A DNA stretch of 64,000 bases from the sequence record OR980947; one strand, 5' to 3'. Numbering within the stretch: position 1 is the first letter of the stretch; the number at the start of each line of letters is the position of its first letter. Under the pieces are notes generated by a model. That model had not been told where the DNA came from. It saw nothing but the letters and a program-made list of their open reading frames with translations, and made no database searches. A program made the position numbers and the translations under genes. This stretch comes from Shigella phage Tf. Below, in pieces: positions 8,920 to 10,265 of this stretch.

Positions 8920-9384
8920 TTACTTTGGATATACACTGTCAAGATAAATATCAGCTTCCATTCTACGTCTGTTTTTCAGGCCGTTTGAGGTGACCTTCTT
9001 ACCTTTGACTGTAACCTTGTTCCACCACTGCATAGCTTCTGCACAACCTACCTTATTACCAGCATTGTGTCGCTTGATAAATGTAGAGTCCTGCATAGCC
9101 GTGATACCGATGTTGTATGTTTCACTTACAAGTGCATCAAACTCGTTCTGAGAAGTTGGAACCTTGATGGTTTTGTTCACTGCTGCAACGAACTTCTCAA
9201 CATCTGCGAGAAGATACTGTTCAGATTGTTCAGCAGTGATTTTCATACCCATCTTAACAGGTTTTCCGTCAATACGGATTGTACCATACCCGATTGTTGG
9301 GATTCCGGCAGAGTCTTCGTAAGCCTCTAACTTCAGACCTTCAAAGAACTTAATAGCTTCTAAACCTTTTCTTGAGATTTGCAT
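8920..9384 (-). CDS. phage lysozyme (glycoside hydrolase family 24, T4 E / lambda R type)
   Basis: N-terminal motif EGLKLEAYEDSAGIPTIGYG matches the catalytic Glu-Asp-Thr region of T4-type lysozymes; size 154 aa. Confidence 0.85.
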   Translation of the reverse strand: MQISRKGLEAIKFFEGLKLEAYEDSAGIPTIGYGTIRIDGKPVKMGMKITAEQSEQYLLADVEKFVAAVNKTIKVPTSQNEFDALVSETYNIGITAMQDSTFIKRHNAGNKVGCAEAMQWWNKVTVKGKKVTSNGLKNRRRMEADIYLDSVYPK

Positions 9385-10265
9385 TATGCCTCCCCTGCTG
9401 GGTTAACTGTAACTGTTGCCGCATTAGATGTTACAGAGCCACCTGCACCAGTAACTACACAGGTGTAGCTTCCTGAATCAGCAGCAGTTGCACCTTCTTT
9501 GGTGTAAGTTGCAGCAGTTGCGTCTGGGATGACTTCCTCACCCTTCTTCCACTGATAACCTGTTGCACCAGTAGCCACAACATTCAGCGTTAAGGTCTCA
9601 CCTTCAGTGATTTCTTGATTGGTTGGCTGTTGAGTGATTACCGGAAGTGCTTTAACAGTTACTGTTGCAGGGCTAGAAGTAACAGAACCACCTGCACCTG
9701 TTACAACGCAAGTGTATGAACCTGCATCTGCTGGCAGAGCACCAGACTTGCTATAGGTAGCATTTGTCGCTGAAGGAATGTCAGAGCCATCTTTCTTCCA
9801 CTGATACCCAGTTGCATCGGTTGCAATAACACTTAGAGTAAGTGTACCACCTTCATTCACTGTTTGATTGGTTGGTTGCTGGGTGATTACTGGTGGCTTG
9901 ATAGCATCCTTCAACTTAGCATTCAACATTGAGAACGGTTTAACTCTTGCCAGCCATTCACAATAAACTGTATCAACGTCTTTACCATTGATAATTGCAT
10001 ATTGTAAGTCCATGAAGAAGTCAGAAGTTCTCATTTGAGCGCCAACGCTGTAAAGCAACTCATCACTAAATGGAACTTTATAGTCTGGTTTATAGTCAAA
10101 CTTCTCAACTTCTGCAATATCAGCTTCAGGCCAATACGAACTATAGGTAAGTGGTAAAATAGCTTCTTGATATGTTCTAAAATCATATCTCTTGCCAGCC
10201 TTTACGTTTGCAACAAAACCTTTTACAAACTCTTTGAAGTCTGGGTAAGTCTTTGCTTTAATCAT
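9384..10265 (-). CDS. protein with two tandem Ig-like domains at the C-terminus (possibly Hoc-like decoration or adhesion protein)
   Basis: two near-identical ~80 aa repeats (PVITQQPTNQ...GSYTCVVTGAGGSVTS..ATVTV) typical of Ig-like I-set/Big domains. Confidence 0.6.
   Translation of the reverse strand: MIKAKTYPDFKEFVKGFVANVKAGKRYDFRTYQEAILPLTYSSYWPEADIAEVEKFDYKPDYKVPFSDELLYSVGAQMRTSDFFMDLQYAIINGKDVDTVYCEWLARVKPFSMLNAKLKDAIKPPVITQQPTNQTVNEGGTLTLSVIATDATGYQWKKDGSDIPSATNATYSKSGALPADAGSYTCVVTGAGGSVTSSPATVTVKALPVITQQPTNQEITEGETLTLNVVATGATGYQWKKGEEVIPDATAATYTKEGATAADSGSYTCVVTGAGGSVTSNAATVTVNPAGEA
9396..9866. repeat. tandem duplication (~2 x 240 bp) encoding two Ig-like domains
   Basis: two protein repeats ~80% identical; DNA segments near 9600-9660 and 9840-9900 visibly similar. 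Confidence 0.6.

What the first reader, a model, noticed from the sequence alone, without database searches (positions are those of the whole stretch)
9384..10265. Protein with tandemly duplicated Ig-like domains encoded next to the lysozyme gene
The C-terminal 160 aa consist of two ~80% identical Ig-like repeats (PVITQQPTNQ...GSYTCVVTGAGGSVTS...ATVTV), reflected in a ~470-bp tandem DNA duplication (9396-9866). Ig-like domains on phage proteins are usually surface-exposed (Hoc-type capsid decoration, tail adhesion to mucus or cell surfaces). Here the gene lies in the leftward non-structural block immediately upstream of the lysozyme, an unusual position. The recent duplication is also a likely site of copy-number variation.
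Basis: partly seen in the sequence, partly recalled or inferred. Interest (0 to 1): 0.5.

Follow-up and report, generated by a model that had tools for sequence, protein, structure and literature searches.

The report
Known Hoc-like capsid decoration protein
This gene encodes the already described capsid decoration protein of Felix O1-like phages, a plug that sits in the centre of capsid hexamers and displays two antibody-like domains; it is real but ordinary, and its two repeats are ancient, not a recent duplication.

Summary
The ORF at 9384-10265 (- strand, 293 aa) is real. Its C-terminal 166 aa are two Ig-like (I-set type) domains. The window is a Felixounavirus genome.

The protein is the orthologue of Bas63 Hex-Dec (PDB 9NCF chain S) and Sf14 gp20 (9C2D). 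It is also the orthologue of Felix O1 gp36, which was found in virions by mass spectrometry in 2010. Cryo-EM of the orthologues shows a monomer plugged into pentamer-proximal capsid hexamers, with the Ig string pointing outward. The capsid-binding domain (98% identical), contact residues R79 and R107, and capsid protein D221 are all conserved here.

The position next to the lysozyme, about 14 kb from the capsid gene, is conserved in the six relatives examined and already published. So the "Hoc-type" reading is right and already known.

The "recent duplication" reading is wrong. The repeats are 72% identical in protein and 68% in DNA, and synonymous sites are saturated (dS about 1.6).

Two points go beyond the two cryo-EM papers I checked. 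First, Ig1 is a chimera (5' third of ancestral domain 1, 3' two-thirds of domain 2), left by an in-register 3-to-2 contraction at the conserved GYQWKK segment. Felix O1 contracted independently at the same spot between domains 2 and 3. Second, a conserved upstream paralogue containing only the capsid-binding domain is a decayed pseudogene here (10266-10457).

The parts
9384..10265 (-). Hex-Dec gene: Hoc-like hexamer-centre capsid decoration protein, 293 aa, orthologue of Bas63 Hex-Dec, Sf14 gp20, Felix O1 gp36 and wV8 gene 41
   Evidence: ORF. PDB 9ncf_S E 9e-247 and 9c2d_S E 5e-192. PHROG 3995 E 7e-165. 237 phage records share this DNA.
9897..10265 (-). [quoted passage not shown]
   Evidence: 97.6% identical to the Bas63 CapBD and 87% to the Sf14 CapBD. 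R79 and R107 are present in all seven proteins compared. The Sf14 paper maps capsid binding to the N-terminal 118 aa, with R79/R107 salt bridges to capsid protein D221.
9645..9893 (-). Ig-like domain 1 (aa 125-207). It is a chimera: the 5' ~90 nt derive from ancestral domain A (Ig1 of 3-Ig forms), the rest from domain B (Ig2).
   Evidence: Pfam Ig_3/I-set. The 5' part is 90% identical to wV8 Ig1 and 63% to wV8 Ig2; the 3' part is 66% and 90%. 71 of 80 informative sites fit this model. Max-chi-square permutation p <= 1e-4.
9793..9806 (-). Recombination junction region in Ig1: TATCAGTGGAAGAA (codons for YQWKK). It is the longest exact run shared by the two units, and the inferred breakpoint lies at 9801-9804.
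9396..9644 (-). Ig-like domain 2 (aa 208-290), orthologous to the terminal domain of the 3- and 4-Ig forms (wV8 Ig3, Bas63 Ig4). The same 14-nt core lies at 9544-9557.
   Evidence: Pfam Ig_2/I-set. Half-domain identities to Bas63 Ig4 are 100% and 93%. dN/dS 0.09-0.13 against the Felixounavirus orthologues, 0.16 against Sf14.
8920..9384 (-). GH24 endolysin gene immediately downstream. Its ATG overlaps the Hex-Dec stop codon (TAATG), and a GGAGG lies in the last Hex-Dec codons.
   Evidence: Pfam Phage_lysozyme E 8e-40. Sequence. The adjacency is the same in wV8, REP9, Bas63, Felix O1, ULIM3 and Sf14.
8893..8910 (-). Terminator-like hairpin plus T-run that closes the Hex-Dec/lysozyme unit
   Evidence: A terminator is annotated at the same place in wV8.
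10266..10457 (-). Decayed remnant of the CapBD-only paralogue (wV8 gene 42, Felix O1 ORF81, bas63_0125, Sf14 gp21). The start codon is lost, the frame shifts, and about 220 bp are deleted internally. It includes the upstream terminator-like hairpin at 10434-10449.
   Evidence: DNA alignment with wV8, Bas63 and Felix O1. Three-frame translation. Terminator scan.
24691..25794 (+). Major capsid protein gene, the inferred binding partner, with D221 conserved. It lies 14.4 kb away on the opposite strand.
   Evidence: PHROG 29. 364/366 residues identical to the Bas63 capsid protein 9ncf_A, and the D in KIRDAYL at position 221 is conserved.

Best explanation
The gene encodes the Ounavirinae 'Hex-Dec' protein, a non-cementing, Hoc-like capsid decoration protein.

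Shown for orthologues and inferred here from near-identity:
- The N-terminal ~120-aa helical capsid-binding domain inserts as a monomer into the centre of major-capsid-protein hexamers of the T=9 head.
- It occupies only the pentamer-proximal (facet-edge) hexamers. From T=9 geometry that gives up to about 60 copies.
- It is anchored by salt bridges from R79 and R107 to D221 of the capsid protein.

Inferred:
- The two C-terminal Ig-like domains project outward as a short, flexible, acidic fibre. By analogy with T4 Hoc, this fibre mediates weak adhesion to glycans or surfaces, or virion-virion interactions, that keep virions where hosts are.
- The protein is not needed for capsid stability.
- The gene is transcribed late, as Felix O1 gene 36 is, with the lysozyme gene that directly follows it. 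The 1-nt stop/start overlap suggests translational coupling.

History of the gene:
- The Ig units are an ancient duplication kept under purifying selection.
- Domain number in this family (1-4) changes by in-register unequal homologous recombination between units.
- This lineage, together with the REP phages, went from three domains to two by a crossover in the conserved GYQWKK segment between domains 1 and 2.
For: Identity of the protein:
- phmmer against PDB finds 9ncf_S (Bas63 Ig-like domain protein) at E 9e-247 and 9c2d_S/9c3a (Sf14 gp20) at E 5e-192, aligned from residue 1.
- The capsid-binding domain is 97.6% identical to Bas63 and 87% to Sf14, and R79 and R107 are conserved.
- The window's capsid protein is 364/366 identical to the Bas63 capsid protein and keeps D221.

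Published work on orthologues:
- The papers report hexamer-centre binding, restriction to edge hexamers, the R79/R107-D221 contacts, MS detection of Sf14 gp20, a gene more than 10 kb outside the structural module, and 1-4 Ig domains across the genus.
- Felix O1 gp36 (31.6 kDa, next to lysin gp35) was found in CsCl-purified virions with 14 peptides and 44% coverage. It is maximally expressed at 60 min. The calculated mass of the Felix O1 orthologue is 31.5 kDa.

Ig domains and selection:
- Pfam hits, AlphaFold2 pLDDT about 90 and Foldseek matches to tandem I-set domains.
- dN/dS is 0.00-0.12 for the capsid-binding domain and 0.09-0.16 for the terminal Ig domain.

Chimera:
- (p <= 1e-4).
- wV8 Ig2 and Ig3 share a 34-nt exact run exactly at the Felix O1 breakpoint interval.
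Against: - Nothing was measured on this phage itself. Presence on its capsid is inferred from orthologues.
- The Ig domains were not resolved in either cryo-EM map, and their ligand or function is untested in any Ounavirinae phage.
- The salt-bridge contacts come from the Sf14 model only.
- No sigma-70-like promoter was found between the upstream terminator and the gene, so the transcription unit and the coupling to the lysozyme are inferred.
- In Felix O1 the lysin peaked at 25 min but gene 36 at 60 min, which argues against strict co-regulation.
- The direction of the domain-number change (contraction rather than expansion) rests on parsimony.
Confidence: 0.93

Rival explanations
1. It is a tail protein, as most GenBank records and PHROG 3995 label it. 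The label descends from the original Felix O1 annotation 'HK97 major tail subunit'.
For: PHROG 3995 'tail protein' E 7e-165, plus hits to 'major tail protein' PHROGs 158, 853 and 3575. Relatives are annotated 'tail protein'.
Against: The major-tail-protein PHROG hits cover mainly the Ig region: aa 126-206 and 120-204, and 96-206 for phrog_853. Cryo-EM places both orthologues at capsid hexamer centres. The N-terminal domain is 98% identical to the solved capsid-binding domain.
Confidence: 0.02
2. The two Ig units are a recent tandem duplication and therefore an active hotspot of copy-number change within populations.
For: The units are adjacent, in register and equal in length. Relatives differ in copy number.
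Against: DNA identity is 68%, third-position identity 42%, and dS about 1.6, against 0.15-0.34 between Felixounavirus orthologues. Each half-unit is 93-100% identical to the corresponding half-domain of Bas63. Repeat finders see nothing. Only 14 nt of exact identity remain between the two units here, so further homologous recombination should be rare.
Confidence: 0.03
3. The 3-Ig forms are the derived state. They arose by unequal crossover between two different 2-Ig alleles, an 'Aa-Bc' Felix O1 type and an 'Ab-Cc' window type. On this view the window's form is ancestral rather than a contraction.
For: A crossover at the same GYQWKK junction between those two alleles would regenerate Aa-Bb-Cc exactly. 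The sequence logic follows.
Against: It needs two pre-existing chimeric alleles. The complete Aa-Bb-Cc form is the commonest class: 10 of 35 genes sampled (34 complete and one truncated at a contig end). Mooglevirus Sf14 also has three domains. Several independent junction classes (Ab, Bc, Ac, Aa-Cc) are explained more simply as deletions from one 3-Ig parent.
Confidence: 0.1
4. It is a lysis accessory protein: an Ig-domain cell-envelope binder co-expressed with the endolysin, and not a virion component.
For: The stop/start overlap with the lysozyme gene, and the conserved adjacency.
Against: Orthologues are abundant virion proteins by MS and are seen on capsids. Felix O1 gene 36 peaks later than the lysin.
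Confidence: 0.02

Closest known systems
Bas63 (Escherichia phage JohannRWettstein) Hex-Dec, PDB 9NCF chain S (PMC12609058)
   Same: Same genus. The capsid-binding domain is 97.6% identical, the capsid protein partner is the same (364/366), the gene sits at the same locus upstream of the endolysin, and the first and last Ig domains are shared.
   Different: Bas63 has four Ig domains (A-B-D-C). The window has two (a chimeric A/B domain plus C). Bas63 keeps the upstream CapBD-only paralogue, which is a pseudogene in the window.
Shigella phage Sf14 gp20, PDB 9C2D/9C3A (PMC11821841)
   Same: Orthologue in the sister genus Mooglevirus. It has the same N-terminal capsid-binding domain (87% identical), with R79 and R107 binding capsid protein D221. 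It is MS-detected in virions and lies next to the lysin gene.
   Different: Three Ig domains, each more diverged (about 60-70% identical to the Felixounavirus units).
Felix O1 gp36 (ORF79, 'tail protein' or 'HK97 major tail subunit'; PMC3185647)
   Same: Also a two-Ig form (294 aa). It is a virion protein by MS and a late transcript, at the same locus.
   Different: It reached two domains by a different deletion: a junction between domains 2 and 3 (Aa-Bc) rather than between 1 and 2 (Ab-Cc). It keeps the paralogue ORF81.
T4 Hoc
   Same: It works alike: a monomer at the hexamer centre, non-essential, with a string of Ig-like domains forming an outward fibre that is acidic. The similarity to 'Hoc-like' PHROG families 2973 and 4069 lies in the Ig region.
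   Different: The domain order is reversed: Hoc has its Ig domains at the N-terminus and its capsid-binding domain at the C-terminus. The capsid-binding domains are topologically distinct and share minimal sequence similarity. Hoc decorates all hexamers, Hex-Dec only the edge hexamers.
T5 pb10 (PDB 5LXK, 8ZVI)
   Same: [quoted passage not shown] It is a monomer at hexamer centres. The Ig domain is detectably similar in sequence (E 3e-11).
   Different: A single Ig domain. No sequence match to the capsid-binding domain: the hit covers only chain residues 80-159 of 8zvi_a.

Membership tests
Ounavirinae Hex-Dec / Sf14 gp20 family (Hoc-like hexamer decoration protein) | N-terminal ~120-aa capsid-binding domain homologous to the solved one | tested here: met
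   Aligned from residue 1 to 9ncf_S and 9c2d_S. 97.6% and 87% identity over aa 1-123.
Ounavirinae Hex-Dec / Sf14 gp20 family (Hoc-like hexamer decoration protein) | Capsid-contact arginines R79 and R107, and the partner D221 in the major capsid protein | tested here: met
   R79 and R107 are present. The window's capsid protein keeps D221 and is 364/366 identical to the Bas63 capsid protein. The contacts themselves are taken from PMC11821841.
Ounavirinae Hex-Dec / Sf14 gp20 family (Hoc-like hexamer decoration protein) | C-terminal string of 1-4 Ig-like domains | tested here: met
   Two domains: Pfam Ig_3, Ig_2 and I-set, AlphaFold2 pLDDT about 90, Foldseek matches to tandem I-set Ig domains.
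Ounavirinae Hex-Dec / Sf14 gp20 family (Hoc-like hexamer decoration protein) | Conserved locus: immediately upstream of the GH24 endolysin gene and outside the structural module | tested here: met
   for the window. for six relatives. The structural module lies at 18978-41824.
Ounavirinae Hex-Dec / Sf14 gp20 family (Hoc-like hexamer decoration protein) | Physically present as a monomer at pentamer-proximal hexamer centres of the virion | not testable with these tools
   Shown only for Bas63 and Sf14 (cryo-EM), with virion MS for Sf14 and Felix O1.
T4 Hoc family proper | Hoc architecture: N-terminal Ig domains followed by the Hoc C-terminal capsid-binding domain | tested here: not met
   The order is reversed here. 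The best matched stretches of 'Hoc-like' PHROGs 2973 and 4069 lie in the Ig region (aa 179-291 and 210-287). The Bas63 authors report distinct capsid-binding domain topology and minimal sequence conservation.
Phage major tail / tail tube proteins with a C-terminal Ig domain (source of the 'tail protein' label) | Tail-tube fold or homology outside the Ig domain | tested here: not met
   Hits to PHROGs 158 and 3575 are confined to aa 126-206 and 120-204. [quoted passage not shown] The N-terminal domain matches only the Hex-Dec capsid-binding domain.
T5 pb10 family | pb10 N-terminal capsid-binding domain | tested here: not met
   The phmmer hit to 8zvi_a/5lxk_A covers only the Ig domain (query 214-289, chain 80-159).

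The most novel reading that the evidence does not exclude
Ig-domain number in Ounavirinae Hex-Dec proteins is set by recurrent in-register unequal recombination at one hotspot, the conserved Trp-strand codons (GYQWKK). The lineage in this window has both shortened its capsid fibre from three domains to two and lost a conserved, so far undescribed paralogue consisting only of the capsid-binding domain. That paralogue may compete with, or regulate, Hex-Dec occupancy of capsid hexamers. I put the recombination part at about 0.85. A capsid-related role for the paralogue is speculative.
Probability: 0.25. Interest if true: 0.4.

Novelty: already known. Interest (0 to 1): 0.2.

Why it matters
Practical consequences:
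- It corrects a widespread misannotation. Most of the relatives' records that name this gene call it 'tail protein'; many others list it only as hypothetical.
- Decoration proteins of this kind are display platforms and may influence where therapeutic Felix O1-like phages localise.

Two small additions could guide experiments:
- A defined recombination hotspot explains the 1-4 domain variation, which the published papers called unexplained.
- A conserved paralogue with only the capsid-binding domain is dispensable in this lineage.

Neither changes the overall picture.

Tried and rejected
- Tandem Repeats Finder and the direct-repeat finder found no DNA repeat across 9000-10600. The repeat is visible only in protein or in a codon-aware comparison.
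- The sigma-70 promoter scan found no candidate between the terminator at 10434-10449 and the start codon. The promoter remains unknown.
- Single-sequence AlphaFold2 failed on the capsid-binding domain (pLDDT below 50 over most of aa 1-121). That domain's fold is therefore taken from the solved orthologues, not from my model.
- A first regex-based domain count missed units. I replaced it with anchoring on the Y[QEK]W motif.
- The wV8 proteome paper says nothing about this protein.
- I did not use the large protein-database searches. The PDB, phage-collection and IMG/VR searches had already settled identity.
- I rejected the tail protein, lysis accessory and recent duplication readings (see the rival explanations).
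Full report
**What is in the sequence**

Window 9384-10265 holds a 293-aa ATG-initiated ORF on the minus strand. Its last 166 residues are two head-to-tail 83-aa units followed by the tail GEA:
- unit 1: aa 125-207, window 9645-9893
- unit 2: aa 208-290, window 9396-9644

The evidence that these are Ig-like domains:
- Both units hit Pfam Ig_3 (E 9e-22), Ig_2 (3e-20) and I-set (6e-17).
- A single-sequence AlphaFold2 model gives two beta-sandwiches at pLDDT about 90.
- The best PDB fold matches are tandem I-set Ig pairs of Robo, MuSK and titin (E down to 1.6e-15).

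So "two Ig-like repeats" is confirmed. The numbers need correcting:
- The units are 72% identical in protein (60/83), not about 80%.
- The repeated DNA is 498 bp (9396-9893), not about 470 bp.
- DNA identity is only 68%, and 42% at third codon positions. Of the 60 identical residues, 35 use different codons.
- Tandem Repeats Finder and the direct-repeat finder detect nothing.
- Nei-Gojobori dS between the units is about 1.6, which is saturated, with dN/dS about 0.15.

This is an old duplication under purifying selection, not a recent one.

**What the genome is**

The region matches 237 phage records, essentially all Felixounavirus (Felix O1-like myophages of Escherichia, Salmonella, Shigella and Citrobacter). 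The best matches are the REP5-12 phages at about 95%. The structural block at 20-44 kb matches other Felixounaviruses at about 96%.

In the window the morphogenesis module runs on the plus strand:
- terminase: 18978-20594
- portal: 20612-22078
- protease: 22922-24268
- major capsid protein: 24691-25794
- sheath: 27720-29072
- tape measure: 30181-32454
- tail fibre: 39464-41824

The Ig gene lies 14.4 kb from the capsid gene, on the other strand. A block of 23 tRNA genes sits in between.

**What the protein is**

A phmmer search of PDB sequences gives full-length matches starting at residue 1:
- 9ncf_S, "Immunoglobulin-like domain protein", 460 aa, E 9e-247
- 9c2d_S/9c3a, "Putative tail protein", 372 aa, E 5e-192

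These are chains of the capsid reconstructions of Escherichia phage Bas63 (PMC12609058) and Shigella phage Sf14 (PMC11821841). Both papers describe the protein (Hex-Dec in Bas63, gp20 in Sf14) as follows:
- It is a Hoc-like decoration protein.
- It binds only at the pentamer-proximal, facet-edge hexamers.
- Unresolved Ig-like domains extend outward.
- In Sf14 the anchor is a set of salt bridges from R79 and R107 to D221 of the capsid protein, and gp20 was detected in virions by MS.
- The Bas63 paper notes that the gene lies more than 10 kb outside the structural module, and that Felixounavirus species encode one to four Ig-like domains.

The 2010 Felix O1 genome paper (PMC3185647) had already found gp36 in CsCl-purified virions. 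gp36 is listed as "tail protein", 31.6 kDa, adjacent to lysin gp35, with 14 peptides and 44% coverage. [quoted passage not shown] The Felix O1 orthologue I extracted has a calculated mass of 31.5 kDa.

**Transfer to this window**

- The window's capsid-binding domain (aa 1-123) is 97.6% identical to Bas63 and 87% to Sf14, and R79 and R107 are present.
- The window's capsid protein is identical to the Bas63 capsid protein at 364 of 366 aligned residues and keeps D221.
- The gene order Hex-Dec then GH24 endolysin is the same in wV8, REP9, Bas63, Felix O1, ULIM3 and Sf14.
- In the window the Hex-Dec stop overlaps the lysozyme start (TAATG), with a GGAGG in the last Hex-Dec codons.
- The pair is bracketed by terminator-like hairpins at 10434-10449 and 8893-8910, matching the terminators annotated in wV8.

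I therefore assign the protein to the Hex-Dec family with high confidence.

The "tail protein" label (PHROG 3995, most GenBank records) descends from the original Felix O1 annotation "HK97 major tail subunit". It rests mainly on Ig-domain similarity. The hits to major-tail-protein PHROGs cover aa 126-206 and 120-204, and 96-206 for phrog_853, which reaches a little into the end of the capsid-binding domain.

What the Ig fibre binds is untested in any Ounavirinae phage. The adhesion or aggregation role is an inference from T4 Hoc. The Ig part is acidic (net charge about -1 and -6 for the two units), as the Bas63 authors note for Hex-Dec and Hoc.

**History of the repeats (beyond the two cryo-EM papers)**

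I compared seven GenBank-derived genes (including the window's own) and 28 IMG/VR loci. I named the Bas63 domains A, B, D and C in order, and split each unit at the conserved GYQWKK motif.

| Ig domains | Architecture classes seen |
|---|---|
| 3 | Aa-Bb-Cc, the commonest (10 of 35, wV8 type) |
| 2 | at least three different classes: Aa-Cc, Aa-Bc (Felix O1), Ab-Cc (the window and REP9) |
| 1 | Ac and Ab |
| 4 | Aa-Bb-Dd-Cc (Bas63), plus a form with a different third domain |

At DNA level:
- **Window Ig1.** The first ~90 nt are 90% identical to wV8 Ig1 and 63% to wV8 Ig2. The remaining ~157 nt are 66% and 90% respectively. Of 80 informative sites, 71 fit this model, with the breakpoint at unit nt 89-92 (window 9801-9804). 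The max-chi-square permutation test gives p <= 1e-4.
- **Felix O1 Ig2.** It is a B/C chimera with 82 of 83 informative sites consistent and the breakpoint at unit nt 68-103. This is exactly where wV8 Ig2 and Ig3 share a 34-nt identical run, GCAACAGGTGCGACAGGTTACCAGTGGAAGAAAG.
- The junctions are visible by eye.

Domain number therefore changes by in-register unequal homologous recombination. The recurrent crossover point is the most conserved segment, the codons for the core Trp strand. The window and Felix O1 reached two domains independently.

That these were contractions from a three-domain parent is the parsimonious reading, not a proven one. A crossover between the two chimeric 2-Ig alleles could in principle rebuild a 3-Ig gene. 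In the window only 14 nt of exact identity (TATCAGTGGAAGAA at 9793-9806 and 9544-9557) remain between the units. Further rearrangement should be infrequent.

Neither 2025 paper discusses junctions or this mechanism. The Sf14 paper leaves gain versus loss open.

**A lost neighbour**

In most relatives the capsid-binding domain matches two places. The second is a 122-123-aa gene directly upstream of Hex-Dec: wV8 gene 42, Felix O1 ORF81, bas63_0125, Sf14 gp21. What I found about it:
- It is a paralogue of the capsid-binding domain alone (36% identity over 121 aa, E 6e-17; PHROG 4463).
- It is intact in 29 of 32 relatives' loci.
- In the window and in REP9 the 192 bp at 10266-10457 align to both ends of this gene. 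They have an ATG-to-ATA change, frameshifts and an internal deletion of about 220 bp. This is a pseudogene.
- The paralogue lacks the two contact arginines (G and Q at the aligned positions, read).
- It is not a modelled chain in any PDB entry.
- It is not among the MS-listed virion proteins of Felix O1 or Sf14.
- It is not mentioned in either cryo-EM paper.
- If Felix O1 "gene 37" is this ORF, which I infer from sequential numbering, it is a late transcript.

Its role is unknown. It is evidently dispensable.

**Verdict**

The Hoc-type interpretation is correct and already published, with structures, for close orthologues. The "recent duplication" and "unusual position" points do not hold. Novelty: already known. 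The recombination junctions and the paralogue pseudogene are modest additions.

Noticed in passing
window 10266-10457 (- strand): The apparent intergenic spacer upstream of the Ig gene is a decayed copy of a conserved 123-aa gene (wV8 gene 42, Felix O1 ORF81, bas63_0125). The start codon is lost, the frame shifts, and about 220 bp are deleted internally. REP9 has the same state.
   Followed up: yes
L003:2133-2504 (Bas63), L004:2133-2504 (Felix O1), L006:2136-2504 (Sf14 gp21), L001:4615-4986 (wV8 gene 42): That gene is a paralogue of the Hex-Dec capsid-binding domain alone (36% identity, E 6e-17). It is intact in 29 of 32 relatives and lacks contact residues R79 and R107. It is not modelled in any PDB entry and not mentioned in the two cryo-EM papers. 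It may be late-expressed, if it is Felix O1 'gene 37'. Function unknown.
   Followed up: partly
L008 and L019 (461 aa); L023, L024, L025, L027, L033 (210-211 aa): Two IMG/VR four-Ig variants carry a third domain that is not Bas63's domain D (only about 65-72% identical to any reference half). One-Ig variants have Ac or Ab chimeric units, which implies two-unit deletions at the same GYQWKK junction.
   Followed up: partly
window 13703-18548 (+ strand): A cluster of 23 tRNA genes lies between the leftward block and the terminase gene. This is typical of Felix O1-like genomes. A 265-aa GTG ORF (17576-18373) overlaps tRNA-Phe.
   Followed up: no
window 12122-13537 (+ strand): A 471-aa protein of PHROG 850 ('RNA-binding protein'). 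The Sf14 orthologue is annotated DUF2828. It lies just upstream of the tRNA cluster and is divergently oriented from the Hex-Dec block.
   Followed up: no
GenBank GU169904.1 (Staphylococcus phage SA1), 142816-143190, hit H58: A 147-kb record named as a Staphylococcus phage carries a Hex-Dec capsid-binding domain 96% identical to the window's, plus the paralogue. This looks like a mixed or chimeric assembly containing Felix O1-like sequence.
   Followed up: no
window 9384-10265, model m5f8d7622b0de: Single-sequence AlphaFold2 models the two Ig domains well (pLDDT about 90) but fails on the capsid-binding domain (pLDDT below 50). This echoes the Sf14 authors' remark that the predicted capsid-binding domain did not match the density.
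   Followed up: no
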